Of a DNA stretch of 64,000 nt, positions 13,761 to 45,323 are shown one piece after another; within the stretch, counting starts at the first letter, position 1, and each line of letters starts with the position of its first letter. The DNA comes from Candidatus Hydrogenedens sp. GTDB lineage: Bacteria > Hydrogenedentota > Hydrogenedentia > Hydrogenedentales > Hydrogenedentaceae. A program made the position numbers and the translations under genes. The notes under the pieces are model-generated. The model was not told where the DNA came from. It ran no database searches and worked only from the letters and a program-made list of their open reading frames with translations. The stretch is from assembly GCA_049968235.1 (NCBI GenBank), contig JBMFRC010000015.1, forward strand, positions 10,815 through 74,814. The letters are read 5' to 3'.

Positions 13761-16700
13761 TTATTTTCTTCCCCTGTGGAACATACTCGAAAACATATAA
13801 TTTGCCATAGGGATTATCCAGAGTGTTAGAAGAGTACTCGAAGAAAGTCCTGCCATAACAGTTAATGCCAGAGGTTGTCTTAATTCAGAACCTTCACCAT
13901 GTGATAATAACATGGGCAGTAAACCGAGAACCGTTGTTAATGTTGTCATCAATATAGGTCTGAGACGAACCACCGCTGCCTGTACGATAGCATCATGTGT
14001 AGAAAGCCCTCTTGAAACAAGTTGGTTGGTATAGTCAATTAGAACAATAGCATTGTTTACTACTATTCCTGCAAGAACTATAGAACCTAAAAAAACCATT
14101 ACATTTAAATTTGTATTTGTCCAGAATAGCACCAAGACAACACCAATAAAGGCAAGTGGAACAGAAAACATAATCAAGATAGGCAACCAGATAGATTCAA
14201 ATTGACATGCCATAACTACATAAACAAGAAAAACAGCTAACAATAATGCGAAACGTAAACTTTGATAGGAAGTTGATAGTTCACGATTTTGACCACCAAG
14301 TGTAATAAAGAATTCGCGTGGTTTTTCTACTTCTCGTAATGATTCTAAAACTTCATTAGATACACTGGCTAAATCCCTTCCCTCAATATTTGCTGTAATC
14401 AGGGCGACTCTTTTTTGCCCTATTCTTCGAATATCACTGGGTCCTGTATCCTCTATAATTCGGGCTACATCACAAAGACGAATGGGTGTTGTTCCTTCTA
14501 CTATGGATAACTGCTTTAAGTCTTCTATGCTTTGTAAATAGGTTTGGTCTGTACGTACACGAATATCTATCTTGTCTCCTCCCCGATTGAATTTGGTGGC
14601 AATTTCCCCTTGGATTTCTCTTCTTAATTTATTTGCTACTTCCATTGGAGTTAGCCCTTTTTCAGCAAGAAGTTCTCTATCCAACTGAATAAGTAGTTCA
14701 GGATACCCCGACTGTATAGAAATATCAGCATCTTTTATCCCCTTTATAACTTTTACTTTTTGAAGACATTTTCCGCCAACACTTTTTAATATGTTCAAAT
14801 CATCACCAAAAATTTGGACTTCTAAATCGTTTTTCATTGTAAAGAGTGTAGGTAACGAAAAAACTATAGATTCCTCTGGAAGGGGTACTATAGAAGAACG
14901 AATTTCATCAATAATTTTGTCTTGTATCCTTGCTGTTTGATTTCGATTTTTCAACAAAACAGTAAATGATGCTTTGTTTTCATTTTTCCCTTTACTTTCC
15001 GATTTGGAACTTTCAGTTCCCACCTGTAATGTAACTCGTTCAACTAAGGGATGCTCTTTAAGTACTTTTTCGATTCTTGATGCTTTTTGTAAAGTCTGTT
15101 CTAATTTAGTTCCTGCACGCGTTTCAAAAAGAATATTAAATTCCCCCTGTTTCATTGCAGGGATAACTTCCTGTCCAAGGGTGGGTAGTATCTTTAATGT
15201 GTAAATAAAAAGGACTACAGCAAGAAGTATGAAAATAGGTGAAAATTTCAAACTATAAGAAAGTGAAATTCTATAAAAATATTGAAAACTTTCAAATCCG
15301 ATATGAAAGATTTGGAGGGGTATATAAAGTGTCCAATGGATAACTTTCTTCAAAATAAAAAACAGTATAAGTATGATGACAAAAATAGGGAGAGAGAAAA
15401 GAATTGAGAAGAAGATGATGGGATAAAGAATAAAATTTAATATCAACCATGAAGTAAGTTTTAACAAAAGATTAAAAGGAAAGAAAACAATTCTAATTAT
15501 ATCTTTGATTGTAGATTGTGAAAGTCTAAATTTGAATATATCAAGAAAATGTTTTTTAGATTTTCTAAAATGTCTTTTTATTATGAAGATTAAAGCATAT
15601 AAAAACGAAGATATTGTCTTTTTCTGCTTTACATTTTTATAAAATAGAAATGTACGCACAGGATGGAAAATATATTGAGTATTTTCGGATATAAAGTGTG
15701 TTTTTGATACAACCAGTGGATTAAAGAATAAAGCAACAAACAATGAAGCAAGGAGTGAAAAGGTAACAGTTAATGCAAGGTCCCCAAAAATTTGTCCTGC
15801 TATCCCTTCTACAAAAGCCACCGGGAAAAATACCGCTACAGTCGTTAGTGTTGAAGCGATTACAGCAGAACTTACTTCTGATGTCCCGCGAATGGCAGAA
15901 TCGACGACAGAATCTCCCTCTTCTCTACATCGAGCAATGCTTTCTAATACTACGATAGAATTATCCACTAACATACCGATACCTAATGCAAGTCCTCCCA
16001 ATGACATAATATTAAGAGAAATATCTCTCATGAACATGGGTATAAAAACGGTAATAATAGAAATAGGAATGGCAAAACCTATTGTAAGAGTACTTCGTAA
16101 TTCACGAAGGAAAAGATAGAGAATGAGTAATGCTAATATACCTCCATTAATAGCAGAATTTTGAACTTCCTGTATAGAACTGATAATAAACTGTGACTGG
16201 TCGCTAATGATATGAATTTTTGCATCAGCGGGGAGTGAACTAAGCAAATTCTTTTTCTTAAACAATTCTTTCCGTGATTTTGGGTCCTCAAGAGTATGTT
16301 GGCCATCAGCATCTTTAGCAACAGGTTGAAGTCCAAAGGACATCTGCTCATCTATTAATTCAGATAAACTTTTCTTCCTTTCAATTCCTAACAAATCTTT
16401 TATAAGATTACAAACTGTAACTGTATTTGAATCCCCTTCTTTGTAAATCTCTATTTCTATAGCATCTTCACCATTAATTCGGATAATTGTATCTCTTTCT
16501 TTATTTCCCCACCGGACAGTAGCAACATCTTTTAATTTAATAGGAACTGATTTTTTCTGCACATTAGATATACTTTGAGAAGAAGTTGATAACGATTTTA
16601 TGGGTAAATTGGATATCGGATTGGAATCCAGAGTAGGTATGCCAATAGATGAGGAAATAATTACATTTTTAATATCTTCAATATCCTTAAATTCTTTAAG

Positions 16701-17441
16701 GGTCCGCACAATATATTCCGTTTTCCCTTCAACTAATTTTCCCCCCGCAACATTAATATTCTGACTTGCCAGACTTTGAGTAATATCATCTAATGACAAT
16801 CCTAATGATTTAAGCATTTTGCTATCTACCAGAATTTGTATCTCTTCTTCCTGCCCTCCTTTTACTACAACCTGTGCAATCCCTGTTTCTGCCTCCAAAT
16901 CACTTTTGAGTTTTCTTTGGACAGATTCGCGAAGTGTTGTTAAATATTCATTTTTTTCCTCTGAATCTAAATTATTTGGCGGAGTAATTCCTACACGAAT
17001 TACAGGGTCTAAATTTGGATTAAATCTTAGAATAACAGGTTTTTTAGTTACCTCTTTGGGTGGTTCAAATAAGTCCAATCGGTCACGCACATCTTGTTGG
17101 GCAACATTCATATCTGTGTTCCAGAGGAATTCCAGAGTTATTTCAGAAAGTCCGACAGATGAAACACTACTAATTTCAACAAGTCCACTAACAATACTTA
17201 ACATTTCTTCAAGAGGACGAGTAACCAACTTTTCTACATCTTCGGGTGCTGCTCCCTCAAATTCTGTTTGTATGGTCAGAGAAGGATATGAGATTTCAGG
17301 CATCAGATTAATAGGGAGTTTTTGATAAGAACGCCAACCGAAAACAATAATAGTAGTGAATATCATTAATGTTGTTACGGGACGGTATATGGGAAAAGAT
17401 ATTAAGGACGATGTCGTTTGTTTTATTGGTTGTTCGCTCAC
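13761..17441 (-). CDS. RND efflux permease (HAE1, MdtB-like) with atypical insertions
   Basis: 1226 aa. Conserved RND TM4 'GMLVDNSIVVLESI' and TM10 region. The first periplasmic loop is roughly 100 aa longer than in AcrB. About 150 aa carrying 2-3 additional hydrophobic helices (residues ~581-730, nt ~15252..15701) are inserted between TM6 and TM7. Confidence 0.85.
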   Translation of the reverse strand: MSEQPIKQTTSSLISFPIYRPVTTLMIFTTIIVFGWRSYQKLPINLMPEISYPSLTIQTEFEGAAPEDVEKLVTRPLEEMLSIVSGLVEISSVSSVGLSEITLEFLWNTDMNVAQQDVRDRLDLFEPPKEVTKKPVILRFNPNLDPVIRVGITPPNNLDSEEKNEYLTTLRESVQRKLKSDLEAETGIAQVVVKGGQEEEIQILVDSKMLKSLGLSLDDITQSLASQNINVAGGKLVEGKTEYIVRTLKEFKDIEDIKNVIISSSIGIPTLDSNPISNLPIKSLSTSSQSISNVQKKSVPIKLKDVATVRWGNKERDTIIRINGEDAIEIEIYKEGDSNTVTVCNLIKDLLGIERKKSLSELIDEQMSFGLQPVAKDADGQHTLEDPKSRKELFKKKNLLSSLPADAKIHIISDQSQFIISSIQEVQNSAINGGILALLILYLFLRELRSTLTIGFAIPISIITVFIPMFMRDISLNIMSLGGLALGIGMLVDNSIVVLESIARCREEGDSVVDSAIRGTSEVSSAVIASTLTTVAVFFPVAFVEGIAGQIFGDLALTVTFSLLASLFVALFFNPLVVSKTHFISENTQYIFHPVRTFLFYKNVKQKKTISSFLYALIFIIKRHFRKSKKHFLDIFKFRLSQSTIKDIIRIVFFPFNLLLKLTSWLILNFILYPIIFFSILFSLPIFVIILILFFILKKVIHWTLYIPLQIFHIGFESFQYFYRISLSYSLKFSPIFILLAVVLFIYTLKILPTLGQEVIPAMKQGEFNILFETRAGTKLEQTLQKASRIEKVLKEHPLVERVTLQVGTESSKSESKGKNENKASFTVLLKNRNQTARIQDKIIDEIRSSIVPLPEESIVFSLPTLFTMKNDLEVQIFGDDLNILKSVGGKCLQKVKVIKGIKDADISIQSGYPELLIQLDRELLAEKGLTPMEVANKLRREIQGEIATKFNRGGDKIDIRVRTDQTYLQSIEDLKQLSIVEGTTPIRLCDVARIIEDTGPSDIRRIGQKRVALITANIEGRDLASVSNEVLESLREVEKPREFFITLGGQNRELSTSYQSLRFALLLAVFLVYVVMACQFESIWLPILIMFSVPLAFIGVVLVLFWTNTNLNVMVFLGSIVLAGIVVNNAIVLIDYTNQLVSRGLSTHDAIVQAAVVRLRPILMTTLTTVLGLLPMLLSHGEGSELRQPLALTVMAGLSSSTLLTLWIIPMANYMFSSMFHRGRK

Positions 17442-18686: not shown

Positions 18687-18858
18687 AATAACTTTCTATT
18701 TCATTTATATTATAAAAGAATCTTTTAGTTAACAAAAAGTTAAAGTACATTTATATTATATTACTAATTTGACCAATTTTTATTACATTTTGTAACACTT
18801 TTTTGCAATTATTTTTGAAAATTCAATTTTACAAAAATAAAAACTTGTAAATAATTTC

Positions 18859-18889
18859 TTGACAATTTATAATAAAAGTGGCATTATTA
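18859..18889 (+). promoter_or_regulatory. putative sigma70-type promoter for the PKD lipoprotein gene
   Basis: TTGACA at 18859-18864 followed after ~19 nt by TATTAT (18884-18889). It lies in the 228-nt AT-rich divergent intergenic region shared with the efflux operon. Confidence 0.4.
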
Positions 18890-18962
18890 TAAAGTGATAT
18901 AATTCATGTTATAATTGTATACTATTGTTGTGAACAATAAGAGCACAACTGGAGAAATTTAT

Positions 18963-21900
18963 ATGAGAAAATCTGTATATTTTTTGTGTTTTCAAAGCAT
19001 CCTATTTTTCACAATATTGTTGACAATTACAGGTTGTCCTCGAGAAGAAGTGGGAGGTTATTTAATTGTAGAACCGACATCGGTGGATTTGGGTTCTAAT
19101 GATGATAGTGCAGACATTCTGGTATGGAAAAATACAACGACCAGTTCTATAGGTCCAATTGTTGTTGAATCCCAAATTCCGTGGATTTCTGTGGAAGGTT
19201 GTGCTACTGTTAATGATGAATGTTATAGTTTGGGACCTTTGGATAAAAAACGCATACGGATAAGAATAGACAGGGAAAAAACAGACCTCGGACCTAATTC
19301 AGGAAATATAATCGTTCGGGCTACGAATGCTCCTTCAACAACGGTCCTGATAACTTTAATTGATTTAATAAAAGTGGATTTTGATGCTTCGAGTAAATTT
19401 ACGACAGTAAACGAGGCAATTAGATTTTTTAATCAAAGTGCAGTTCAATCAGGGACTATACGAAAAGTAACATGGGATTTTGGAGATGGTCAAACCTCTA
19501 ATGATTATAATCCAACATATTTCTATCAGAAACCCGGTAATTATACAGTTACCTTGACTGTAGAGACTGATAAAGGTATTGAGAAAAGAGTAAAAGAGAA
19601 TTTTATAAATGTAATTAGTGGTAACCTTACTGTTGATTTTTCTGCAAGTTCTCAGATAGTTCTATTGGGCGAGGAAGTTCAGTTAATAGATAGAAGTCGT
19701 TCCGAAAAAGAAAATATTATTAATCGTTTCTGGGATTTCGGAGATGGAAAAACCAGTAATGAAGTAAATCCAAGGCATAAATATGAAAATCCTGGAATTT
19801 ATTCCGTTACTTTAACTGTATATACAGAGAATCAAAATAAATCATTAACTAAAGAAGGGTATATAACTGTTCAAGAAGGTGTGCCTCCTAAAGCAAAATT
19901 CTCTGTTAGTCAAATCAAACCATTTATATATATTCCGGTTCAATTTTCTGATTTATCGGAAGCAGGAAGTTCGCCTATTACTGACTGGTTATGGGATTTT
20001 GGCGATGGAAACACTTCAACAGAACAAAATCCGCAATATGCGTTCACAAGGATTGGGAATCAGCAAATAAAATTAACAGTTAAGAACAAGTTCGGTATTA
20101 GTTCCTTTTCACTGCCTGTAGAAGTTATTTATCTACCTCCTACCGCAGAATTTTCTGCTGAACCACTTGTTTTGTATGAAGGAGAATCGGTTTTCTTTGC
20201 TGATTTATCCATAAAGGGGACAGAACGAATCATTCGCTGGTTGTGGAATTTTGGAGATGGTGGTACCGAGACCATAGAATATCAACCCTATTCTCATGAG
20301 AATGGGAATACAAGATATGCCTATGCACAACCCGGTATTTATTCCGTATCTCTAACGGTAAATACAAGCACAACTTCAAATAATGAAAGTAGTATTACAA
20401 AAAGTTCTTATATTACAGTTCACAAACCACCTGTGCCCCAATTAAGTGTTTCTACAAGAAGCCCTGTAATACAGAAAGAAGTGCTTTTCCTCAATCGAAC
20501 AGCAATAGGAACAGAGACAGAGTTGACTTTTGAATGGAATTTTGGCGATGGGTCTCCTGTCAAAACTATGAACACTACGGATTCTGTTTCACATATTTAT
20601 TCAGAAGCCGGAGTTTATGATGTTACATTAAAGGTAAAAACGCCATTAAAAACATTCGAAAGTGAACCTGTTAAAGTTTATGTAGATGCTCCACCTATTC
20701 CAGATTTTGAGTATACCCCCAAACGGATAACAGTAGAAGATTTAGTACAGTTTACGGATTTGTCTAACTCTGAAGGAACTCGACCTATAATAGGTTGGGT
20801 ATGGTCATTTGGCGATGGTTCTGGTGTATCAACCATGCAAAACCCAACACATCGCTTTGAAAGTCCCGGAAAATATAAAGTAGAGTTGTATTTAGTATTT
20901 ACCCATTCCAAGAGTGGAGAGCAACTTAAAACATCTGCAGTTTCAAAAACATTGACCATCGGTTCTGCAATTCCTCCAACAGCCGGATTTAAAATTGAAA
21001 GTCCTTGTGCCATTGTAGGAAGTGAAGTAAAGTTTTACGACCAATCAAAAACGGGAACAGCACCCATTGTCAGTTGGGAATGGGATTTTGGTGATGGTGA
21101 AACTTCAAATGACCCATCACCAATACATGTATATTCTACTCCAGGAACTTATACCGTAAAATTAAAAGTTCAAACAGAAGGGGGACTTGAATCAGAAGTC
21201 GTAAAACAAGATTGCATAGACGTAAGTAATTATGCAAGTCCTTTAGATATATTTGTAAGAGAACGCGACTCTGAATATACATGGACAACGCCGGTAGAAT
21301 ATCCTGTAAATTATACCTCAGGTTCAGTTTCTATACGATTAGCGACCGCATATATAACGCGAATGACATCACAAGCCTGGCGCGAGGCAGATGATTTGTA
21401 TAGTGGAAGAATATGGAAACATAATTTGGCCATTATTGTTCCAGAACGAAAACGAAATAATACCGCCTTATTATTCATTGATGGAGGTAACATCAATAGT
21501 AATCCACCTAATGAATCAGAAAGACTGTTCTTTGGTGAACTTGCCGCTTTATCCGGCTCTGTAATTGTTCATATAGACAATGTTCCTAACCAGCCTATTG
21601 TATTTATCGATGACTACGATGCAGAAAGGAATGTTATTCTTAAGTCGCGTACAGAGGATGACATTATTGCTTATAGTTATGACAAGTATATGAATGAATA
21701 TAAGAATGGTAACGACGATTATCATTGGCCATTATTACTGGCAATGGCAAAATCTGCTGTCCGTGCTATGGATACAACCCAATTTATATTGGAAGATAAT
21801 GCACCATCGGAATTTATTATATCAGGAGGTTCGAAACGCGGATGGACTACATGGTTAACAGGATTAACAGACTGTCGTATAAAAGCAATAGCTCCACTTG

Positions 21901-23726
21901 TTATAGATGTCCTGAATATGGACAAGCAAATGGAACATCATAAAAATGTCTACGGTTATTGGGCACCTTCTATTTATGCCTATGCACAGATGAAAGTTTT
22001 TGACAGACTTATTCCTGACGGCGGAAATCTGTTACCTGAAGCAGAGGCTCTTCTAAAACTTATAGACCCGTATGAGTATTTGGAAAGAATGCAGAATATT
22101 CCCAAGTTTATTTTAAATTCATCCTGCGATGAATTCTTTGTACCCGATTCTTCTTTATGGTATTTCAAGGATTTGTTGGGAGAGAAATATCTAAATTATG
22201 TTCCTAATGTCTCTCATGGACTTGGGAATGAATTTAGTTTTGAGACAGATGCGGTGCAAAATTTGTTCGCATGGTTTTTAGCAAAAACTCAAAATATTCA
22301 ATTACCCACTTTCACATGGCAGAAGGTTACAAATGGAAATGCAAATACATTACAGGTGGTTGTAAATAGCCAGTTTACATCTTTAATAAAAGAAGTAAAA
22401 CTATGGCAATGCAATAATCCATATGCAAGAGATTTTAGAAAATACAAGATTGATAGCATTGGAGTTCAGTATCAAAGTGAAATATTACAACCTGTAACCC
22501 CGGGCGTTTATCAAGCAACGGTAAATACCCCTTCACAGGGCTATACGGCGTATTTTATTCAGTTAACATTTAATAATCCAGCAAGATTTCAAATGGCGGT
22601 TCCGGGGCTAACAGTTCCTTCATTAGTCTATACAACTTCTATTTATATCACTCCGGAAACTTATCCTGAATACACCTCGGAGAGATACACAAATTACAAA
22701 TATCCATATTTAGTTCTTCGTGGTTCTCCTTACGAAATGGGTAGAGACTATGGAGATTTAATGAGAAATGAAATCATAAACCATGCTAATTATGTGTTGA
22801 GCAATTTAGGGAGATTTGGTGTTACTCAGACAAATCTTGATAACGCGTGGAGTATTCAACAAGGAAATCTTGATGAGAGAATACAACAAGAATTGCAGGG
22901 TATTTCAGATAGCACAGGAATTAATTATGACGCATTAGGGAAACTGCAATTGGTTGAATGCCTGAGTCCGTATTCGACCACAAAATCTTCGGGGTCTTTA
23001 TTATGGTCAACGGCTACCAATATGCCTTCATTCTTCGATTACGCCCCATTAATTCAAACTTATTCATTAAATAGACAGTTGTATAATGGTGGACAACAAA
23101 CCTACCCGGTGGTTATATTTTATATACCTGAACATGGATTTCCCCATGTGTTATTCACTTTCGCCGGAATGGTTGTTAGTAGAGCAGGAGTTAATGTGGC
23201 AGGATTAACATATGGAGATATACCTGTATCTGGTGAAAGTGTCGTGCTGAATGAGAATATGCTAACTGCATTTCGTAGTGCAATGTATGATGTCAATAGA
23301 CTAAATTCACTTATAGAATGGACGGATATGTCTTCGTTAGGTAGATTGCACTCCTATTTATTAGGAGATGGAAGATACGAATTAAGAGGTGCAAAATATC
23401 TGGTCAAATCATCATCAAGGTTGTTAGTAAGAGATAATGATACAAATGATGATTATCGACCTAATATCTTACCAAATATTGTTTATGATGCTGATACGGC
23501 AACGAGGGCAAATAATATTTATACATTAATCCGAGATAACTATGGACAATTAGTTATATCTGGGCTATATACCTTATCACAAAGGGGAGCCGTTGCTAAT
23601 TCAAACTTGATGAATCTTGTAATTGATGCTACCGCTTTGAAGGGATATATTGCTGTTGCGAATGGGACACAAGGCGCCTCTACACAAACATTTGAAATCT
23701 ATGATTTTCAATCTATTTTACCGTAA
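18963..23726 (+). CDS. large surface lipoprotein: 7 x PKD domains + PhoPQ-related (PqaA-like) alpha/beta-hydrolase domain + C45 (acyl-CoA:6-APA acyltransferase-like) Ntn-hydrolase domain
   Basis: The ORF track opens at a TTG (18915). The ATG at 18963 has a GGAG RBS and gives 'MRKSVYFLCFQSILFFTILLTITGC', a signal peptide with lipobox ITGC. There are seven repeats carrying 'W(D/N/S)FGDG' PKD signatures. The central region matches the PhoPQ-related family ('IWKHNLAIIVPE', 'SGGSKRGWTTWLTG', 'MEHHKNVYGYWAPS'). The C-terminus matches C45 peptidases ('LVLRGSPYEMGRDYG', candidate nucleophile 'ECLSPYS', 'FAGMVVSRAGVNVAGLTYGDI'). Confidence 0.7.
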   Translation: MRKSVYFLCFQSILFFTILLTITGCPREEVGGYLIVEPTSVDLGSNDDSADILVWKNTTTSSIGPIVVESQIPWISVEGCATVNDECYSLGPLDKKRIRIRIDREKTDLGPNSGNIIVRATNAPSTTVLITLIDLIKVDFDASSKFTTVNEAIRFFNQSAVQSGTIRKVTWDFGDGQTSNDYNPTYFYQKPGNYTVTLTVETDKGIEKRVKENFINVISGNLTVDFSASSQIVLLGEEVQLIDRSRSEKENIINRFWDFGDGKTSNEVNPRHKYENPGIYSVTLTVYTENQNKSLTKEGYITVQEGVPPKAKFSVSQIKPFIYIPVQFSDLSEAGSSPITDWLWDFGDGNTSTEQNPQYAFTRIGNQQIKLTVKNKFGISSFSLPVEVIYLPPTAEFSAEPLVLYEGESVFFADLSIKGTERIIRWLWNFGDGGTETIEYQPYSHENGNTRYAYAQPGIYSVSLTVNTSTTSNNESSITKSSYITVHKPPVPQLSVSTRSPVIQKEVLFLNRTAIGTETELTFEWNFGDGSPVKTMNTTDSVSHIYSEAGVYDVTLKVKTPLKTFESEPVKVYVDAPPIPDFEYTPKRITVEDLVQFTDLSNSEGTRPIIGWVWSFGDGSGVSTMQNPTHRFESPGKYKVELYLVFTHSKSGEQLKTSAVSKTLTIGSAIPPTAGFKIESPCAIVGSEVKFYDQSKTGTAPIVSWEWDFGDGETSNDPSPIHVYSTPGTYTVKLKVQTEGGLESEVVKQDCIDVSNYASPLDIFVRERDSEYTWTTPVEYPVNYTSGSVSIRLATAYITRMTSQAWREADDLYSGRIWKHNLAIIVPERKRNNTALLFIDGGNINSNPPNESERLFFGELAALSGSVIVHIDNVPNQPIVFIDDYDAERNVILKSRTEDDIIAYSYDKYMNEYKNGNDDYHWPLLLAMAKSAVRAMDTTQFILEDNAPSEFIISGGSKRGWTTWLTGLTDCRIKAIAPLVIDVLNMDKQMEHHKNVYGYWAPSIYAYAQMKVFDRLIPDGGNLLPEAEALLKLIDPYEYLERMQNIPKFILNSSCDEFFVPDSSLWYFKDLLGEKYLNYVPNVSHGLGNEFSFETDAVQNLFAWFLAKTQNIQLPTFTWQKVTNGNANTLQVVVNSQFTSLIKEVKLWQCNNPYARDFRKYKIDSIGVQYQSEILQPVTPGVYQATVNTPSQGYTAYFIQLTFNNPARFQMAVPGLTVPSLVYTTSIYITPETYPEYTSERYTNYKYPYLVLRGSPYEMGRDYGDLMRNEIINHANYVLSNLGRFGVTQTNLDNAWSIQQGNLDERIQQELQGISDSTGINYDALGKLQLVECLSPYSTTKSSGSLLWSTATNMPSFFDYAPLIQTYSLNRQLYNGGQQTYPVVIFYIPEHGFPHVLFTFAGMVVSRAGVNVAGLTYGDIPVSGESVVLNENMLTAFRSAMYDVNRLNSLIEWTDMSSLGRLHSYLLGDGRYELRGAKYLVKSSSRLLVRDNDTNDDYRPNILPNIVYDADTATRANNIYTLIRDNYGQLVISGLYTLSQRGAVANSNLMNLVIDATALKGYIAVANGTQGASTQTFEIYDFQSILP
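19350..21230 (+). repeat. tandem array of seven PKD-domain-encoding repeats (~260-290 nt period) inside the lipoprotein gene
   Basis: Recurring TGGGATTTTGG(A/C/T)GATGG-like segments at ~19474, 19731, 19993, 20243, 20536, 20807 and 21081. Similarity is at protein level with partial nucleotide similarity. Confidence 0.7.
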
Positions 23727-23785
23727 GTAAAAAGTTTTGTATAGGGTTACTAAAACTAACGGGCATAATAAGTGGAGTAGTATAA

Positions 23786-24784
23786 ATGACAGAATTAGTT
23801 AAATGTATTTCCCGTGGAAATAATGTTCTTGAAAAACTGAGTGAATTAAGAGGGAAAACTTTAGTCGTTTCAATGGATATCCCATGGAAAGGTGTTCAAA
23901 AATATATTTCATGGGAACCTACAGAGATTATCTGGGCACAGGAGATGGGATTAAATATTATTGAAAATCTGGAAAAGAAACTGGCTGATTTTGATTGGGT
24001 AGTCGGAATAGGTGGAGGCGTAAGTTGTGACCTCGCAAAGTATATTGCATGGAAGAGAAACATCCCATTAGTATTAGTTCCAACCATAGTTTCTGTAGAT
24101 GCCCCATTTACACCATCCATTGCAATAAGAGAAGATAATGTAGTCCGTTATATCGGAAACATTATCCCAAATCATATATTTGTAGATTATCGAATAATTC
24201 AAGATGCTCCCCCTCATCTAAATAGGGCAGGAGTTGCAGACTTATTAAGTATTCATACTGCATTGTGGGATTGGAAGTGTTCCGCAGAGAATAACAACGA
24301 AAAATATGACGCCCAAATCGCCCATGAAGCAGAGGAATGTCTAATAGAAATAGATAAGATGGCAGAGGAAATATATAATGTTACCCCTCAAGGAATAGAT
24401 ACAATTGTGAATTTATATTGTAAAGAGGTAGAATTGTGCAATACATTTGGAAATGCACGACCCGAAGAAGGTTCCGAACATATTGTTGCCTATCATGTAG
24501 AGTATTTAACCAAAAGACAATTTCTACATGGAGATTTGGTAGGTATGGGTATTTTTTGTATGAGCAGATTACAGGAAAATAAAGTCGAATGGATAACGAA
24601 TTTATTGAAAAGATGTGGTGTTAAATTTCAAGTTGATGGTTTATCAAAAGATGAAATATTACAAACTTTATTAGGGTTAAAAAAATTTAAAGATGATACA
24701 GGATTATTTTATAGTGTAATTGATGTAAAAACGATTACAAATGAATTTGCAAACAATATATTAAATGAACTTAACTTAATATAA
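23786..24784 (+). CDS. glycerol-1-phosphate dehydrogenase (AraM/EgsA)-like, dehydroquinate-synthase-like fold
   Basis: 332 aa. 'GIGGGVSCDLAKYIA' and 'PLVLVPTIVSVDAPFTPS' resemble the G1PDH nucleotide and substrate loops (GGG..D.aK / PTtaS.D). GGAG RBS. Confidence 0.5.
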   Translation: MTELVKCISRGNNVLEKLSELRGKTLVVSMDIPWKGVQKYISWEPTEIIWAQEMGLNIIENLEKKLADFDWVVGIGGGVSCDLAKYIAWKRNIPLVLVPTIVSVDAPFTPSIAIREDNVVRYIGNIIPNHIFVDYRIIQDAPPHLNRAGVADLLSIHTALWDWKCSAENNNEKYDAQIAHEAEECLIEIDKMAEEIYNVTPQGIDTIVNLYCKEVELCNTFGNARPEEGSEHIVAYHVEYLTKRQFLHGDLVGMGIFCMSRLQENKVEWITNLLKRCGVKFQVDGLSKDEILQTLLGLKKFKDDTGLFYSVIDVKTITNEFANNILNELNLI

Positions 24785-24799
24785 AAGAAGGAAAGGGAT

Positions 24800-27223
24800 A
24801 TGGAAAAGATGATAGTAATAATTATGATTTCATTGATTTTGTTACTCGGAATATCAATGAAAACCTTGGCAGATGCGAAAACTTTTATAGAAGGAAAGCC
24901 TATCTGGTTAAAAGAACGAACAAAGGTGATGAATGATTTTGCAGGATTTCGAGCTATTTTCAGCGTGGATAATACAGAGAATGTTCTATTACGTTGTGCT
25001 GGACATGATTTTTACAGAGTTTATATCAATGGTACATTTGTGCTCTACGGTCCTGCAAGAGGACCACATGGTTTCCATCGCGTAGATGAAATAAATATAT
25101 CGAATCATTTACAAAAAGGAGAAAATATTCTTGCCATAGAAGCAATTGTATATAATGTAAATGGATATGGTATTACCAACCAGCCGGGGTTTATTCAAGC
25201 AGAGGTTATACAGGGAAAGAAGGTTTTATGTGCAACAGGCTCAGAAAAACATCCCTTTATGGGTTTCGATTTAAATTATAAGTTCAAAAAGGTAGAGCGT
25301 TATAGTTTCCAGAGAGGTTTCTCAGAAGCCTATCGTCTAACCCCACAATCATTGGATTGGATAATGAAAAAGGAAAATGCCCCTACTCCTTATGAAATAG
25401 AAATTTTAGAAAACAAAGCACTTATTTCTCGAGGTGTTCCCATGCCCACATTTGAAAAAATATTACCTGAAAAAGTGATTATTGAAGGTAAAGTGAATTT
25501 ACAAAAACCTATAGAAAAACCATGGATTAATAAGAGTGTTGAACCAAGAGCAGATTTTCTCGGGTATCCCTTTGACCAACTTGAATATTCCCCTCCGAAA
25601 GATTTTCAAAAAATGACTATTGAAAAGGGAGAACGAAAAGAACAATCAGTAAATTTTCCACTTTCCATCAATGCAGAAACTTATAATATATTTGATTTTG
25701 GAAGAAGTATGACAGGCTTTGTCTGTTTGAAAATAAAGGTAGATGAACCCACAAAGGTATTTATCACTTTCGATGAAATGTTAAGAAATGAAACTGTGGA
25801 CTGGAAACGATTGGGTTGCCATAATGTTATAGCATTACATTTATCCGAGAAGGGAGAATATAATTTTGAATCTATTGAGCCTTATACATTTAGATACATG
25901 CAAATTTCTAATACAAATACATCGAGTACAATTATATCAACAGGTATAAAACTTTATGAAAATCCAGAAGCCAAAAAAGCAAAGTTTCTATGTTCTGATG
26001 AACGATTGAACCGAATTTTTGAAGCAGGTAGAGCCACGTTTGCTCAAAATGCCGTAGATATTTTTATGGATTGCCCTCACAGAGAAAGAGCGGGTTGGTT
26101 ATGTGATTCATTCTTTACATCACGGGCAGGTCTCGTTTTGACGGGTAATACAACAGTAGAAAAAAATTTCTTTGAAAACTTTATGCTCCCTCCTAAATTC
26201 GAGTTCTTGCCGGATGGAATGTTACCTATGTGTTATCCTTCGGACCATAATAATGGACAATTTATCCCCAATTGGGCTATGTGGTTTGTTATTCAACTCG
26301 GCGAATATGCAAAAAGAAGCAACGATTGGGATCTGGTAAATGCTCTTAAACCTAAAGTGTTAGCATTGGTTAAATTTTTTGACGCCTACAAAAATTCTGA
26401 TGGACTATTAGAAAAATTGCCCAGTTGGGTTTTCATTGAGTGGTCAAAAGCCAATGATTTTGTTCAGGATGTGAATTATCCATCGAATATGTTATTTGCA
26501 GGTGTCCTTGATACTGTGGCTGAATTATATAAACTGCCCGAATATAAACAAGAGGCAGAAAAAATTAGAGATACCATACGCAAACAATCTTTTGATGGAA
26601 CTTTCTTTGTAGATAATGCAGTTCGTAAAGATGGAAAATTAGAAGTTACTCGTAATCGCACTGAAGTATGCCAGTATTTCGCCTTCTTCTTTAAAGTCGC
26701 AACGAGAGAAACTCATCCCGATTTGTGGAATATATTAAGAAATGATTTCGGACCACATCGGAAAGAGAATAACAAATACCCCGAAATTCATCTGGCGAAT
26801 TCATTTATAGGAAATGTTCTCCGTGCTGAATTATTAACATTGAGTGGAGAAGGTGATAAGGTCCTTGACGAATCCGTAGGCTATCTGGATTACATGGCTC
26901 AAAGAACTGGAACTTTGTGGGAAAATGTTGATGATGGAGCCAGTCTAAATCATGGTTTCGCTTCCCATGTTGTATATATTTATGACAGGGTAGCGATGGG
27001 TATTAGCGAATATAACCCTGTTAATAAAAAGGTAAAAATTGTATTCCGTCCATTATCATTAAAATACTGTGAAGGAGAAATTCCTGTAGCCAATAATCAA
27101 AGTATAAAAATTAAGTGGCAACAGGATGATAACACAATAAGATATCTCATAAGTGTGCCAGATGATTATTCCATTGAAATAGAAAACCTAACAGGTAAAA
27201 ATTTGGTTAAAGAAACGAATTAA
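24800..27223 (+). CDS. secreted glycoside hydrolase, GH78 alpha-L-rhamnosidase-like
   Basis: 807 aa. N-terminal signal peptide. 'FMDCPHRERAGWLCDSFF' resembles the conserved GH78 'DCPxRxERxGWxGD' catalytic-region motif, in a six-hairpin-sized C-terminal half. Confidence 0.55.
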   Translation: MEKMIVIIMISLILLLGISMKTLADAKTFIEGKPIWLKERTKVMNDFAGFRAIFSVDNTENVLLRCAGHDFYRVYINGTFVLYGPARGPHGFHRVDEINISNHLQKGENILAIEAIVYNVNGYGITNQPGFIQAEVIQGKKVLCATGSEKHPFMGFDLNYKFKKVERYSFQRGFSEAYRLTPQSLDWIMKKENAPTPYEIEILENKALISRGVPMPTFEKILPEKVIIEGKVNLQKPIEKPWINKSVEPRADFLGYPFDQLEYSPPKDFQKMTIEKGERKEQSVNFPLSINAETYNIFDFGRSMTGFVCLKIKVDEPTKVFITFDEMLRNETVDWKRLGCHNVIALHLSEKGEYNFESIEPYTFRYMQISNTNTSSTIISTGIKLYENPEAKKAKFLCSDERLNRIFEAGRATFAQNAVDIFMDCPHRERAGWLCDSFFTSRAGLVLTGNTTVEKNFFENFMLPPKFEFLPDGMLPMCYPSDHNNGQFIPNWAMWFVIQLGEYAKRSNDWDLVNALKPKVLALVKFFDAYKNSDGLLEKLPSWVFIEWSKANDFVQDVNYPSNMLFAGVLDTVAELYKLPEYKQEAEKIRDTIRKQSFDGTFFVDNAVRKDGKLEVTRNRTEVCQYFAFFFKVATRETHPDLWNILRNDFGPHRKENNKYPEIHLANSFIGNVLRAELLTLSGEGDKVLDESVGYLDYMAQRTGTLWENVDDGASLNHGFASHVVYIYDRVAMGISEYNPVNKKVKIVFRPLSLKYCEGEIPVANNQSIKIKWQQDDNTIRYLISVPDDYSIEIENLTGKNLVKETN

Positions 27224-28181: not shown

Positions 28182-30512
28182 TTATTGGAAGTAGAATGCA
28201 ATTTTTCTATAACTAACGACATTAGGGTCGGTAATTTCAAGAAATCTCCGTACACGCGGGTCATAATACATTGTTAAACCAATACCAACACCATTGTTCG
28301 CAGGAACAAATACTCCTAAATCTGCTGAGACTATACCACCACGAACAATCATTTTCCCGTATGTGTTGGAATTATGTCTTGTTTTACTTCTCACGATACA
28401 CCAGATAGAGTTGTTGCTATATAGAAGACCATCGAATTGGAATGGTCGCCCCGAATCGGGACGACTTAATTCATCTTTAAACCAGATGCGCCGTAGAGTA
28501 TCTTCGCTAATCCAGTTCATATCAGGATTACAATAGTGATAAGTAGCACGAGTTAAGATATCCAGTGGCAATCCTTTTTGAATTAGGTAATCACGTAGTA
28601 GTTTTACCCCGGCTTCGTTATACTTTACCGCATGTTCATCAGTTGCATCGTAAATATAAATTTTATCCGGTTGACTTGCCCGTAAGCCATAAAAACGAGG
28701 AGTATAATTGGGGTCTGCTAATGCTTTCTGTAATTCCATACGATTAAAAAGTTTTAATTCCGAGGTAGTGAAACTAAATTGTTGTCCTTTTCTTCCAGCC
28801 ACAATTTGACCTGCATCTACTGAATCAGGGTCAAAATATCCCCAACGCAAAGTTTCTGTTACATTATTAATTGTCACCTTATTTGTTCTGTTTGCATTTC
28901 TGGTATCAATGCTATATTGAGTCCATAGGGGGTATTTTTCATTATTTCTTGCACTATGGTTAACACCACGAACGGTTAGGTAATCACCAACCATAATACT
29001 TCCCCCTGCAACGAGTGCAAAGGCATTGGTAGTTCCATCTTCTGCTTTTCCAAATTCACCCGGAGCATCCGCATAGGTTACATCTCCAACAACATAAACA
29101 TTTCCCCTTACCAGTAACTGTCCTTCACCTTTAATTTTACCTGCAATAACTAAATCTCCATTTACAGCAACGGTTCTTTCTATCTGTATGGGGTCTTGTT
29201 CCGTGCCGATAAGTATGAGATTACCATCATAAGTTCCTGTCGTTGATAGACTATTGATAGCAGAATTCGACGCGGTAGGTAATGGATTATTTATATTCGC
29301 AGGTATATATACAGAACCACGAGGAACACCGTAGGCAACACCGGAAGTTATTTGTCCTGGTGGTGGGGCTTCTCCTTCTACTATTGTATTATCAAAATGA
29401 ACTCTTCCATTGGCAGTATTCAAAACCACCTGGAATTCCTCATCATCAACAATTCGATTATTATTATCATCCGGAAATGGAGCCGGAAAGTTATTAGGCA
29501 CGATCCCATCTGTTTGAGCTTGCTCATCCGTAGGATAATTCATATATAGGTTTGCAAATTGAACGAGGTCCCCATTAGGAGTTCTCCCTGCATTTTGTAA
29601 GTTTGTAATTATCATGTTCCCAGAAGAGTCTTGAACAATTTTACCATTGTTATTATTAATACGATATGATTTCAGAGTTGAACTTTGGAGTTCTGAAACA
29701 GAAAATGGGGTTCCATCAGGTTTATAAACACGACCTCTTGTATATAATGTACCTGCAGCACGACTATCTGCCTCTGTTGGTCTTACTAACATAGATTCCA
29801 GAGATGCAACCTTAATACGGTCAAAAGTATTATAATTTGCAGGGTCAGTATTTCTAAACAAGTCTAAGGACTGAAATTCAGCATGACATAGAATACAACT
29901 TATATTATTTGCAAGAACGGCAAATTCTGTATGAGGACTCGCTCTGCCCCCAATATTAACAACCTGAACCGCTGTTTTTGCAATACCATTCCGTCTCGCA
30001 GTGGATGTTATTGTAAGGAATGAACGAGACCATTCATCATATCTTGCAATATGAACACTTTCAATTTGTGCTACTTCTTGGTTATTGTTAGGGTCCCTTA
30101 ACACAATGGGTTGATTAATCAAAGCCCAACCTCTCCGGTCATATCCAGCAGGATAGGTTTCAAAAATACCGTTCCCATTTCCCGTTTCATCAATATCTTT
30201 GGTCCCATTAAAATTCAGGTCTTCATTTATTGGGATCCCTAAATTATTATCAAGATAGTACCGATAAGAAGCCCAATTTTTTGTTGTATTTCCACTTGTT
30301 TCTATATAATCGTCCCAGAGCCTTTTTAATGCTAGGTCTATACCTGCTTGCGATGCTTCCCTGAGAATAATATCATCTGCAGAAAAATCCGTTTCTCTCT
30401 TGTTATTTACAACTATCGCGGAAATAACTCCTATAGCACCCAAAATTACAATTATAGAAATCGTGGTAAAAATTAACGCTATACCAGATTCTTTTTTTCT
30501 TACATTACGCAT
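28182..30512 (-). CDS. giant GspK-like minor pseudopilin
   Basis: 776 aa. The N-terminus 'RKKESGIALIFTTISIIVILGAIGV' resembles the degenerate prepilin-like segment of GspK/PilX ('QRGVALIIVL'). It follows GspI- and GspJ-like genes in canonical I-J-K order. The remainder is a large Asn/Gly-rich beta-rich domain with no motif I recognise. Confidence 0.45.
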   Translation of the reverse strand: MRNVRKKESGIALIFTTISIIVILGAIGVISAIVVNNKRETDFSADDIILREASQAGIDLALKRLWDDYIETSGNTTKNWASYRYYLDNNLGIPINEDLNFNGTKDIDETGNGNGIFETYPAGYDRRGWALINQPIVLRDPNNNQEVAQIESVHIARYDEWSRSFLTITSTARRNGIAKTAVQVVNIGGRASPHTEFAVLANNISCILCHAEFQSLDLFRNTDPANYNTFDRIKVASLESMLVRPTEADSRAAGTLYTRGRVYKPDGTPFSVSELQSSTLKSYRINNNNGKIVQDSSGNMIITNLQNAGRTPNGDLVQFANLYMNYPTDEQAQTDGIVPNNFPAPFPDDNNNRIVDDEEFQVVLNTANGRVHFDNTIVEGEAPPPGQITSGVAYGVPRGSVYIPANINNPLPTASNSAINSLSTTGTYDGNLILIGTEQDPIQIERTVAVNGDLVIAGKIKGEGQLLVRGNVYVVGDVTYADAPGEFGKAEDGTTNAFALVAGGSIMVGDYLTVRGVNHSARNNEKYPLWTQYSIDTRNANRTNKVTINNVTETLRWGYFDPDSVDAGQIVAGRKGQQFSFTTSELKLFNRMELQKALADPNYTPRFYGLRASQPDKIYIYDATDEHAVKYNEAGVKLLRDYLIQKGLPLDILTRATYHYCNPDMNWISEDTLRRIWFKDELSRPDSGRPFQFDGLLYSNNSIWCIVRSKTRHNSNTYGKMIVRGGIVSADLGVFVPANNGVGIGLTMYYDPRVRRFLEITDPNVVSYRKIAFYFQ

Positions 30513-30522
30513 ACGCTATCTC

Positions 30523-31188
30523 CTAATTTTCTAATTTAACTATCCCGCTGAGTTCGGCGCGAATTAAGGGTCCTTCTCCCGGACCCATTCGTTTCGTTCC
30601 TTCTAAACGAATGTATAACAAAGTAGGGGTATTTTCACTATCACTTCTATCAGGTAATAATTGAAACTCTACATTACTAATACAATTTGCACTCCCTATT
30701 ACGCGTCTATTATTCCCCTGAACCATTACTAATCTTCTTGTTAATGCCCTATCTCCATTTGTATCTTCACCTGCATCTAAAATGGCATTCGGAGGAACTC
30801 CTTCAGAAGAACGGTCTTCATTTTCATATTGAACAAGAATCTGTTGGGATGATTGGACAAATGCAGGTGTGTTGACGGGTACGGGGACAAAAAATCGCAA
30901 GCCCCGTCCATCATTTTGGACTTGAATTGCCTCTGCCCCTGCAGGTGCTATAGGAGGAGTAACATTCGTAGTAACTTCTGTATATGCCTGTTTTACTAAT
31001 TCTGAAAGTTCATTAAATGTATTTCGCAAATCAGAATCGATTTCATTTTGAGCATAAGAAAGTGATGAGGATTTTACAGAAGATTGTAACGCCAGAAAAC
31101 TCAGTAAGGAAATGATACCCATCAATGCAACGGATATAGTTACTTCTATTAAAGTAAATCCAAAAATTCTTTTTTTCATATCACACAT
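30523..31188 (-). CDS. type II secretion/type IV pilus minor pseudopilin (GspJ-like)
   Basis: 221 aa. Prepilin cleavage/methylation motif 'KRIFG|FTLIEV' followed by a hydrophobic helix. The true start may be the ATG at 31179 (MKKRIFGF...). Confidence 0.6.
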   Translation of the reverse strand: MCDMKKRIFGFTLIEVTISVALMGIISLLSFLALQSSVKSSSLSYAQNEIDSDLRNTFNELSELVKQAYTEVTTNVTPPIAPAGAEAIQVQNDGRGLRFFVPVPVNTPAFVQSSQQILVQYENEDRSSEGVPPNAILDAGEDTNGDRALTRRLVMVQGNNRRVIGSANCISNVEFQLLPDRSDSENTPTLLYIRLEGTKRMGPGEGPLIRAELSGIVKLEN

Positions 31189-31197
31189 AGCCTTATT

Positions 31198-40961: not shown

Positions 40962-41075
40962 ACTACATTCCTTATACTACAAAATAAAAATTTAAAACTT
41001 TTTATTTAACAAAAACATGAGATAGTATAATGAGAAGATTAATTGTTAGTCAAAAACATAAAAAAAGGAAGAAAA

Positions 41076-43445: not shown

Positions 43446-43468
43446 CCATTAAAAGAGGGTATTGCATT

Positions 43469-45051: not shown

Positions 45052-45065
45052 ATTTTAATAAAATT

Positions 45066-45096
45066 TTGTGAAAAAGATAAATTTAAATGCTATAAT
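45066..45096 (+). promoter_or_regulatory. putative promoter for the small YjfB-like gene
   Basis: TTGTGA (45066-45071), 19-nt spacer, consensus TATAAT (45091-45096). AAGGAAG RBS before the ATG at 45123. Confidence 0.35.
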
Positions 45097-45122
45097 AGGA
45101 TAAGAAATAAGGAAGTATCGTT

Positions 45123-45308: not shown

Positions 45309-45323
45309 TCCCGTAGCATTTTT

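What the first reader, a model, noticed from the sequence alone, without database searches (positions are those of the whole stretch)
18963..23726. Chimeric giant surface lipoprotein: 7 PKD domains + PhoPQ-related hydrolase + C45 Ntn-hydrolase
One ~1,590-aa lipoprotein (lipobox ITGC) strings together three modules:
- a possible BACON/Ig-like N-domain followed by seven PKD repeats;
- a PhoPQ-activated-pathogenicity-related (PqaA-like) alpha/beta-hydrolase-fold domain, a family of unknown biochemistry;
- a C45 autoproteolytic acyltransferase/hydrolase domain, with 'GSPYEMG', a candidate nucleophile Cys in 'ECLSPYS', and a 'AGMVVSRAGVNVAGL' core.

I do not recognise this combination as a described architecture. 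It is divergently transcribed from the MdtABC-like efflux operon across a shared AT-rich control region. It therefore looks like a cell-surface enzyme acting on an unknown amide- or ester-linked substrate.
Basis: partly seen in the sequence, partly recalled or inferred. Interest (0 to 1): 0.65.

Follow-up and report, generated by a model that had tools for sequence, protein, structure and literature searches.

The report
Surface hydrolase lipoprotein with dead amidase domain
This is a real, conserved 1,587-residue lipoprotein of an uncultured Hydrogenedens bacterium: a long stalk of PKD domains carries an apparently active serine hydrolase of a barely studied family, fused to an amidase-like (C45) domain that has lost its catalytic residues but is still kept by selection.

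Summary

The enzymatic reading of the C45 module is wrong. The true nucleophile column holds Ser1342. That column drifts between Ser, Ala and Cys among close orthologues. The partner Arg and Asp are Tyr1367 and Asn1370. Pfam PF03417 does not hit, and NCBIfam C45 is sub-threshold.

The dead domain is not decaying. Its dN/dS (0.05-0.07) equals that of the S82 core. About 55 degenerate sequences form one clade with their own conserved residues, always C-terminal to S82.

Catalytically intact S82-C45 fusions exist elsewhere, in both domain orders, so the two families appear functionally linked.

The divergent pairing with the RND operon is conserved only among close relatives (down to 70% identity).

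Verdict: a new variant built from known domains, an S82 surface hydrolase with a pseudo-Ntn accessory domain. Substrate unknown. Moderate interest.

The parts
18845..18887 (+). Two overlapping sigma-70-like promoter candidates (TTGTAA-17-TATAAT; TTGACA-17-TG-CATTAT) in the 276-bp AT-rich spacer shared with the divergent MFP/RND operon
   Evidence: 8 sites found against 4.2 +/- 1.6 expected in shuffles, so this is only weakly above chance. Consensus match only.
18951..18954 (+). Shine-Dalgarno-like GGAG, 8 nt upstream of the ATG at 18963
   Evidence: Sequence read. Orthologues start at the equivalent Met.
18963..19037 (+). Lipoprotein signal peptide, residues 1-25, lipobox I-T-G-C with Cys25
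   Evidence: The [GA]-C lipobox is conserved in all full-length orthologues and in the short forms.
19038..19397 (+). N-terminal BACON-like beta-sandwich domain, residues 26-145
   Evidence: No Pfam hit in this protein. BLASTP E 3e-11 to the N-domain of relative P0204, which passes Pfam BACON_2 PF19190.
19398..21230 (+). Seven tandem PKD domains, residues 146-756 (stalk)
   Evidence: PKD_4 E 6.7e-100 and PKD E 8.6e-73, 7 stretches each. (seven W-x-FGDG motifs and the repeat alignment).
21270..22649 (+). PF10142 / MEROPS S82 alpha/beta-hydrolase module with its C-terminal extension, residues 770-1229. Predicted triad Ser957 (nt 21831-21833, motif GGSKRGWTTW), Asp1056 (nt 22128-22130), His1085 (nt 22215-22217)
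   Evidence: E 9.4e-96, residues 788-1159. (S957, D1056, H1085 invariant in 67/67). (a weak, non-significant alignment puts D1056/H1085 on the Asp/His motifs of carboxylesterases). (PF10142 = S82).
22650..23723 (+). C45/Ntn-fold module, catalytically degenerate, residues 1230-1587. Nucleophile-column Ser1342 (nt 22986-22988, codon TCT), Tyr1367 (nt 23061-23063) and Asn1370 (nt 23070-23072) replace the family's Cys/Arg/Asp

Best explanation
The gene encodes a membrane-anchored lipoprotein, probably surface-exposed, of a Candidatus Hydrogenedens bacterium.

Proposed anatomy and mechanism:
- After lipidation at Cys25, a BACON-like domain and seven PKD domains form an extended stalk.
- The stalk carries a two-domain head. 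The working enzyme of the head is the S82 (PF10142, PqaA/AprA family) alpha/beta-hydrolase, using Ser957-Asp1056-His1085 to cleave a peptide or ester bond in an extracellular substrate.
- The C-terminal C45/Ntn-fold domain descends from a genuine Cys-Ntn amidase that was already fused to S82. In this lineage it has lost the nucleophile Cys and its Arg/Asp partners.
- It therefore cannot self-cleave into alpha/beta subunits or hydrolyse amides by the canonical mechanism. It stays as a single-chain 'frozen precursor'.
- It is retained as a non-catalytic accessory. Most likely it binds or positions the acyl or hydrophobic part of the substrate, or it buttresses the S82 domain.

Status of each step:
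- Shown: architecture, fold, residue states, selection, phylogenetic distribution.
- Inferred: S82 activity, surface exposure, the absence of autoprocessing, and the accessory role.
- Unknown: the substrate.
For: - Architecture.
- S82 module: PF10142 E 9.4e-96. Ser957/Asp1056/His1085 are invariant in 67/67 homologues, with the 99/29-residue spacing typical of alpha/beta-hydrolases. The family is classed as peptidase family S82, and AprA is reported to have DPPIV-like protease activity.
- Loss of catalysis: the family consensus Cys/Arg/Asp aligns to NAAA C126(A)/R142/D145, the proposed catalytic triad. The query has Ser/Tyr/Asn. Close orthologues have S, A or C at the nucleophile column, and all have Tyr/Asn. 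All 9 fused loci among species genomes are degenerate.
- Retention: dN/dS is 0.051 and 0.073 for the C45 alpha and beta parts, against 0.057 for the S82 core. Clade-specific conserved residues are N1370, P1394, T1399, R1471, R1475 and Q1583. The degenerate sequences form one pure clade of 55.
- Ancestral linkage: canonical Cys/Arg/Asp fusions S82-C45, S82-C45-C45, C45-S82 and PKD-S82-C45 exist, with PF10142 and PF03417 both passing Pfam cut-offs in P0124, P0231 and P0204.
Against: - No experiment exists on any member of this clade.
- Ser can be an Ntn nucleophile in other acylases, so residual activity in the Ser-bearing orthologues is not formally excluded.
- S82 activity is inferred only from residue conservation, and there is no solved S82 structure.
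- The geometry between the S82 and C45 domains could not be examined, because no coordinates or PAE were available.
- dS to the nearest orthologue is about 0.8-1.0, which is close to saturation, so dN/dS values are approximate.
- The tree is a simple NJ tree with a midpoint root, so 'single loss' is provisional.
- Outer-surface rather than periplasmic location cannot be told from sequence.
Confidence: 0.6

Rival explanations
1. The C45 domain is still an enzyme in this organism. It uses Ser1342 as an N-terminal nucleophile after autoproteolysis (a Ser-Ntn amidase), so the protein is a true bifunctional hydrolase.
For: - Ser is a legitimate Ntn nucleophile. Ser-Ntn acylases such as cephalosporin and penicillin G acylases are among the structural neighbours.
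- Asn1411 in the conserved G-x-N-x-x-G-L motif, Asn1548 and Arg1438 are retained. Taking Asn1411 as the oxyanion-hole Asn rests on my own recall of the equivalent motif in related Ntn hydrolases and was not tested here.
- The domain is under strong purifying selection.
Against: - Orthologues whose C45 domain is 76-86% identical carry Ala at this column, and others carry Cys, so the site is not constrained as a nucleophile.
- The Arg and Asp equivalent to NAAA R142/D145 are replaced by Tyr/Asn throughout the close clade, and by assorted residues in the wider clade.
- Four further residues highly conserved in canonical members (G1349, G1405, G1430, R1459) are also lost.
Confidence: 0.08
2. The protein works together with the divergently transcribed MFP + 2x RND efflux system through a shared control region, for example by processing a substrate that the pump exports or a toxic compound that induces both.
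For: - The head-to-head arrangement with a 276-bp AT-rich spacer holding promoter-like sites on both strands.
- The same arrangement is found in orthologous loci at 86%, 74% and 70% identity.
Against: - Those loci share the whole neighbourhood (SecG, TIM, glycosidase genes and so on), so the conservation is ordinary synteny among close relatives.
- The 37%-identical full-length orthologue P0020 has entirely different neighbours (ClpP, URO-D).
- Promoter-like matches are only about 2 sd above shuffles in AT-rich DNA.
Confidence: 0.08
3. The whole protein is a non-enzymatic adhesin or S-layer-like surface protein in which both enzyme-like domains are merely structural.
For: - There is a long PKD/BACON stalk typical of adhesins.
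- One of the two enzyme-like domains is demonstrably degenerate.
Against: - Ser957, Asp1056, His1085 and the whole GGSKRGWTTW elbow are invariant in 67/67 S82 homologues, including all members of this clade.
- The S82 core has the lowest dN/dS of all modules in three of the four orthologue comparisons (P0005, P0009, P0011) and is second to the PKD block against P0006.
Confidence: 0.06

Closest known systems
PF10142 / MEROPS S82 'PhoPQ-activated pathogenicity-related' family (Salmonella PqaA, Dictyostelium AprA)
   Same: Strong full-length HMM match (E 9.4e-96). Invariant Ser-Asp-His and the SKRGWTTW elbow. A secreted or exported context.
   Different: Here the module is the head of a 1,587-aa lipoprotein, behind a BACON-like domain and seven PKD domains, and is fused to a C45-fold domain. 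71 of the 80 best genomic S82 loci have no C45 domain in or beside the gene. No activity has been measured for any bacterial member that I could find.
C45 peptidase family: acyl-CoA:isopenicillin N acyltransferase (IAT, PDB 2X1C/2X1D); NCBIfam NF040521 'C45 family autoproteolytic acyltransferase/hydrolase'
   Different: Nucleophile Cys -> Ser, and Ala or Cys in close orthologues. The conserved Arg and Asp are replaced by Tyr and Asn. There is no Pfam PF03417 hit, and NF040521 scores 36 bits against a cut-off of 85. The domain is predicted not to autoprocess.
Lysosomal Cys-Ntn lipid amidases NAAA and acid ceramidase (PDB 6DXW, 5U84)
   Different: The window protein lacks all three residues. It is bacterial, fused and lipid-anchored. 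Nothing indicates a lipid-amide substrate apart from analogy.
Catalytically intact S82-C45 fusion proteins from metagenomes (P0124, P0125, P0152, P0231, P0189, P0221, P0266, P0204, P0016/17)
   Same: The same two families sit in one polypeptide. P0204 and P0016/17 also have PKD domains, and P0204 also has a BACON_2 N-domain.
   Different: Those keep Cys/Arg/Asp, and P0124, P0231 and P0204 pass PF03417 (P0189 is sub-threshold; P0152 and P0016 give no hit). Domain order varies (S82-C45, C45-S82, tandem C45). The window protein belongs to the separate degenerate clade.

Membership tests
PKD domain (PF18911 / PF00801) | HMM match above the gathering threshold, repeated | tested here: met
   PKD_4 327.8 bits (cut-off 27) and PKD 240.8 bits (cut-off 23.5), 7 stretches each. 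Seven W-x-FGDG motifs.
PF10142 PhoPQ_related / MEROPS S82 | Full-length HMM match above the gathering threshold | tested here: met
   321.1 bits against a cut-off of 20.3, model positions 19-367 of 367, residues 788-1159.
PF10142 PhoPQ_related / MEROPS S82 | Alpha/beta-hydrolase catalytic Ser-Asp-His present | tested here: met
   S957, D1056 and H1085 are invariant in 67/67 homologues. Assigning them as the triad is inferred from order, spacing and the weak carboxylesterase alignment.
PF10142 PhoPQ_related / MEROPS S82 | Serine peptidase activity | not testable with these tools
   Only a literature statement for AprA (DPPIV-like activity, PMC8326840). There is no solved structure.
C45 (Pfam PF03417 AAT) | HMM match above the gathering threshold | tested here: not met
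   no hit, even at E<=10. 25/32 relatives of the same domain family do hit.
C45 (NCBIfam NF040521 C45_proenzyme) | Score at or above the curated cut-off (85 bits) | tested here: not met
   36.3 bits, E 3.9e-9, only model positions 1-155 of 313. Canonical relatives score 108-212 bits, and the degenerate relative P0020 scores 90.2.
C45 / Cys-Ntn hydrolase superfamily | Ntn alpha-beta-beta-alpha fold with a helical pro-region | tested here: met
C45 / Cys-Ntn hydrolase superfamily | Nucleophile Cys at the start of the first beta-strand of the beta-subunit | tested here: not met
   The column is Cys in 81/125 family domains and in all 77 canonical ones. It is Ser1342 here, and Ala, Ser or Cys in close orthologues. 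Residue 1342 is at the start of strand E111-118 of the model.
C45 / Cys-Ntn hydrolase superfamily | Conserved Arg and Asp partners (NAAA R142/D145 equivalents) | tested here: not met
   Tyr1367 and Asn1370.
C45 / Cys-Ntn hydrolase superfamily | Autoproteolytic maturation into alpha and beta chains | not testable with these tools
   Predicted to be absent because the nucleophile and its partners are missing. This needs protein chemistry.
Bacterial lipoprotein | Signal peptide ending in a lipobox [LVI][ASTVI][GAS]C | tested here: met
   MRK-hydrophobic-ITGC, with Cys25 conserved across orthologues. Lipidation and final location were not testable.
BACON domain (PF13004 / PF19190) | HMM match for the N-terminal domain | tested here: inconclusive
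   No Pfam hit for residues 1-156 or in six distant relatives. However, BLASTP gives E 3e-11 to P0204's N-domain, which passes BACON_2 (32.5 bits against a cut-off of 25).

The most novel reading that the evidence does not exclude
The recurrent fusion of S82 (PqaA/AprA-type) hydrolases with C45 Cys-Ntn amidases, in both domain orders and sometimes with tandem C45 copies, marks a previously unrecognised two-enzyme module. The module would attack one class of substrate at two bonds, for example the ester or peptide bond and the N-acyl amide bond of lipopeptides, aminolipids or acylated cell-envelope fragments. In the Hydrogenedentota PKD-lipoprotein lineage the amidase half has been converted once, long ago, into a conserved pseudo-enzyme that now serves as the substrate-recognition domain of the S82 enzyme. 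If true, this would give the first mechanistic lead to the orphan PhoPQ-activated virulence-associated PqaA family, and a clean bacterial example of an Ntn hydrolase turned into a binding module.
Probability: 0.25. Interest if true: 0.6.

Novelty: new variant of a known kind. Interest (0 to 1): 0.4.

Why it matters
- PF10142/S82 is a widespread family. At least 588 species genomes carry it, across Hydrogenedentota, Planctomycetota, Acidobacteriota and Verrucomicrobiota, and the family also includes PqaA and Dictyostelium AprA. Its bacterial biochemistry is essentially unknown.
- Its repeated fusion to C45 amidases is a 'Rosetta stone' clue to substrate class.
- The Hydrogenedentota clade is a natural experiment. 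One partner has lost catalysis yet remains as tightly constrained as the active partner. That is the signature of a pseudo-enzyme recruited as an accessory domain.
- For annotation, automated names such as 'C45 family autoproteolytic acyltransferase/hydrolase' (given to relative P0020) are probably functionally misleading for this clade.
- Beyond that, the protein is one more large multi-domain surface hydrolase of an uncultured heterotroph, so the impact is moderate.

Tried and rejected
- Direct sequence search of the C-terminal and S82 modules against PDB found nothing. A profile was needed for C45. Even a profile found no significant S82 structure.
- The first AF2 run used a 4-sequence alignment and was useless (pLDDT 39.7). 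It was repeated with 32 sequences.
- The search for homologous proteins with the C-terminal 358 aa alone returned 3 hits. That first suggested a very rare domain. The exhaustive profile search (2,054 representatives) and the full-length search rejected this.
It is not conserved and lies in a helix.
- Ser1343 as an alternative nucleophile was considered. It is conserved among close orthologues but is variable (S/A/G/N/V/H/T/Q/Y) across the degenerate clade, so it was rejected as a conserved catalytic residue.
- A separately encoded C45 gene next to unfused S82 genes was looked for. None was found in 71 loci.
- Functional coupling to the RND operon was rejected as unsupported.
- Literature on Hydrogenedentota physiology gave nothing bearing on this protein.
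- Cluster look-up gave no organism names for the canonical fusions.
- The AFDB fold library was unavailable.
- The Herlihy 2017 AprA paper could not be read directly. The statement about AprA activity is taken from a review.
Full report
1. THE OBSERVATION

The window holds a single long ORF on the + strand that ends at 23726. The mechanical ORF list starts it at a TTG (18915; 1,603 aa). The ATG at 18963 is the better start. It is preceded by GGAG at an 8-nt spacing, and every full-length orthologue begins at the equivalent Met. That gives 1,587 aa.

An identical protein is in NCBI as 'MAG: PKD domain-containing protein [Candidatus Hydrogenedens sp.]' (P0004). Orthologues at 60-89% identity have almost the same length (1,585-1,595 aa). 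dN/dS against the nearest one is 0.07 over the whole gene. The gene is therefore real and expressed as a protein.

The N-terminus (MRK, a hydrophobic stretch, then I-T-G-C) is a lipoprotein signal peptide. The lipobox Cys is conserved in all relatives examined.

2. DOMAIN ANATOMY

Pfam finds seven PKD domains (PKD_4 E 6.7e-100, PKD E 8.6e-73, 7 stretches each). It also finds PF10142 PhoPQ_related over residues 788-1159 (E 9.4e-96, 321 bits). The seven W-x-FGDG motifs lie at residues 171, 257, 344, 428, 525, 614 and 707.

Residues 26-145 give no Pfam hit. They do align (BLASTP E 3e-11, 26% identity over 107 residues) to the N-domain of relative P0204, which passes Pfam BACON_2. 'BACON-like' is therefore supported only transitively. 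Six other relatives gave no BACON hit.

3. THE C-TERMINAL MODULE (RESIDUES 1230-1587)

PF03417 does not hit it, even at E<=10. NCBIfam NF040521 'C45_proenzyme' gives 36.3 bits against a cut-off of 85, covering only the first half of the model. A single-sequence PDB search found nothing.

An exhaustive profile search showed that the module belongs to a large family: 2,054 representatives at E<=1e-3 and 706 at E<=1e-10. Many members are stand-alone secreted proteins of 375-430 aa.

- 25 of 32 such relatives hit PF03417.
- A profile of them hits NAAA (E 5.9e-10), isopenicillin-N acyltransferase (7e-10) and acid ceramidase (3.8e-9) in the PDB.
- With this alignment AlphaFold2 gave a confident model (pLDDT 91.0, pTM 0.90). 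A 4-sequence alignment had failed (pLDDT 39.7).

Both motifs are conserved family motifs.

4. THE C45-LIKE MODULE IS CATALYTICALLY DEGENERATE

I aligned 125 family domains. The column at query residue 1342 is Cys in 81, residue 1367 is Arg in 79, and residue 1370 is Asp in 79. All 77 'canonical' domains have Cys/Arg/Asp at these three positions.

HMMER aligns the profile's 'ysCSsiaaw...lyqvRnLDy' to 'svfATSivaq...IYHGRNLDY' of the NAAA C126A precursor. These columns therefore correspond to NAAA Cys126, Arg142 and Asp145, the proposed catalytic triad of that enzyme and of Cys-Ntn hydrolases generally (PMC3432061).

The window protein has Ser1342 (codon TCT), Tyr1367 and Asn1370. In the AF2 model residue 1342 sits at the start of the first beta-strand after the helical pro-region, where an Ntn nucleophile belongs.

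Among close orthologues the nucleophile column is not constrained (percentages are identity of the C45 domain to the query):
- Ser in the query and in P0005 (87%).
- Ala in P0006-P0008 (77-86%) and in P0011-P0013 (50-66%).
- Cys in P0009, P0010 and P0001 (65-69%).

All of these have Tyr/Asn at 1367/1370. More distant members fused to PKD and S82 have Gly, Ala, Ser, Thr or Ile at 1342 and assorted residues at 1367. All nine fused loci found among species-representative genomes are degenerate. Ala or Gly cannot be a nucleophile. So canonical autoproteolysis and amide hydrolysis are not the conserved function of this domain.

5. THE DEAD DOMAIN IS MAINTAINED

Nei-Gojobori dN/dS against the nearest orthologue:

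| Module | dN/dS |
|---|---|
| C45 pro/alpha part | 0.051 |
| C45 beta part | 0.073 |
| S82 core | 0.057 |
| PKD block | 0.064 |

dS is about 0.8-1.0, so these values are approximate.

A set of residues shared with active relatives stays (near-)invariant in the degenerate clade: G1254, G1260, G1264, E1310, H1395, G1402, G1409, N1411, R1438, D1469 and N1548 (Y1508 mostly). The degenerate group (54 sequences) has also acquired its own conserved residues: N1370, P1394, T1399, R1471, R1475, Q1583 and a Y-P linker at 1234-1235. At the same time it lost G1349, G1405, G1430, R1459 and W1562.

On a neighbour-joining tree, 55 degenerate sequences form one pure clade, separated from the 77 canonical ones. 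This is a simple tree with a midpoint root. It is consistent with one ancient loss. Essentially all degenerate domains lie directly C-terminal to an S82 module. The few apparent stand-alone ones are short or lack the domain's N-terminus and look like truncated gene calls.

6. THE S82 MODULE LOOKS ACTIVE

Across 67 homologous domains, Ser957 (in GGSKRGWTTW), Asp1056 and His1085 are invariant. Their order and spacing (99 and 29 residues) fit the alpha/beta-hydrolase triad. A weak, non-significant profile match (E 0.12) places D1056 and H1085 on what appear to be the Asp and His motifs of carboxylesterases.

No S82 structure is in the PDB by sequence or profile. PF10142 is classed as MEROPS S82 and described as 'barely characterized' (PMC11878206). 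Its one studied member, Dictyostelium AprA, is reported to have DPPIV-like protease activity (PMC8326840).

7. S82 AND C45 ARE LINKED BEYOND THIS CLADE

Domain mapping of the collected relatives found canonical Cys/Arg/Asp C45 domains fused to S82 in several layouts:
- S82-C45: P0152, P0231, P0147.
- S82-C45-C45: P0124, P0125.
- C45-S82: P0189, P0221, P0266.
- PKDx4-S82-C45: P0204.
- PKDx4-S82-PKDx3-S82-C45: P0016, P0017.

Pfam confirms PF10142 together with PF03417 above threshold in P0124, P0231 and P0204.

The fusion is nevertheless a minority state for S82. Of the 80 best S82 loci from at least 588 matching species genomes, 9 are fused, all PKD-bearing and degenerate. None has a separate C45 gene within 6 kb. 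A shorter form of about 1,230-1,255 aa (PKDx7-S82, no C45) also exists in Hydrogenedentota.

8. GENOMIC CONTEXT

Upstream and divergent lie an HlyD-type membrane-fusion protein and two AcrB-type RND pumps. Downstream on the same strand lie an Fe-ADH_2-like gene and a GH78-like gene, with no terminator-like site between them and the target gene.

The 276-bp spacer has promoter-like hexamers, only modestly above the shuffled expectation (8 against 4.2 +/- 1.6).

The divergent arrangement with the RND operon recurs in orthologues at 86%, 74% and 70% identity, and downstream gene content is largely shared too. This is ordinary synteny among close relatives. The 37%-identical full-length orthologue P0020 sits between ClpP and URO-D genes. 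I see no evidence for a functional tie to efflux. No paralogue of any of the three modules occurs elsewhere in the window.

9. MECHANISM PROPOSED

Shown: a lipobox lipoprotein with a BACON-like domain plus seven PKD domains, then an S82 hydrolase with an intact triad, then an uncleavable C45-fold domain under purifying selection.

Inferred:
- The PKD array acts as a stalk that holds the head away from the membrane.
- The S82 domain is the only catalytic centre. It cleaves a peptide or ester bond in an extracellular substrate.
- The C45-like domain remains a single-chain 'frozen precursor'. It serves as a substrate-binding or specificity module, or as a structural partner. It would have been inherited from a bifunctional S82 + amidase ancestor.

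The substrate is unknown. By analogy with the Cys-Ntn relatives, which act on N-acyl amides of lipids, bile salts and beta-lactams, an acylated or hydrophobic ligand is the most natural guess. This is speculation.

10. COMPARISON, NOVELTY AND SCORE

All four building blocks are known families. The exact protein and its relatives are in databases under automated names ('PKD domain-containing protein', 'PhoPQ-activated protein PqaA family protein', 'C45 family autoproteolytic acyltransferase/hydrolase'). I found no paper that describes the architecture or a pseudo-C45 domain.

Three things are new here:
- A monophyletic, conserved, catalytically dead C45 subfamily that is found only fused to S82.
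- The wider S82-C45 'Rosetta stone' association.
- The correction that this protein is a one-enzyme head, not a two-enzyme head.

I rate it a new variant of a known kind, with interest about 0.4. It is useful for deorphanising S82/PqaA and as a pseudo-enzyme case, but it is not categorically new and has no experimental handle yet.

Noticed in passing
window 13761-17441 (-): The first RND pump is 1,226 aa and matches the AcrB model in four separate stretches. This implies a hydrophobic insertion of about 200 aa relative to typical AcrB. The orthologous loci have the same long form (1,231-1,234 aa).
   Followed up: no
window 23727-27223 (+): No terminator-like site follows the target gene. An Fe-ADH_2-like gene (23786-24784) and a GH78-like alpha-L-rhamnosidase-family gene with a hydrophobic, signal-peptide-like N-terminus (24800-27223) follow closely and may be co-transcribed. 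The Fe-ADH gene is absent from the P0009 orthologous locus.
   Followed up: partly
window 28182-31662 (-): A 776-aa ORF with no Pfam match lies next to two small genes with N-terminal methylation (pseudopilin-like) motifs. The trio is conserved in orthologous loci.
   Followed up: no
window 41043-49154: The window is rich in glycoside hydrolases: melibiase-like (41043-43445), GH116 (45324-49154) and GH78-like. Orthologous loci also hold galactokinase and sugar ABC-transporter genes. This suggests a saccharolytic lifestyle.
   Followed up: no
L006 (1345-6132), L007: Genome records titled 'uncultured Nitrospirales bacterium' carry 75-78% identical copies of this gene's S82 region; the copy in L006 is complete, with the same PKDx7-S82-C45 layout, while L007 is cut at the contig end. 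NCBI assigns the identical protein to Candidatus Hydrogenedens. The taxonomy of those MAG records is probably mislabelled.
   Followed up: no
relatives P0124, P0125, P0129, P0130; P0016, P0017, P0044: Some relatives carry two tandem canonical C45 domains and others carry two S82 domains in one polypeptide, so module duplication is frequent in this protein group.
   Followed up: partly
window 22650-23723 as query: The word-indexed homologue search with the C-terminal 358 aa alone returned only 3 hits, although more than 20 full-length proteins containing this domain, including a 100% identical one, are in the same database. Rarity inferred from that tool alone would have been wrong.
   Followed up: yes
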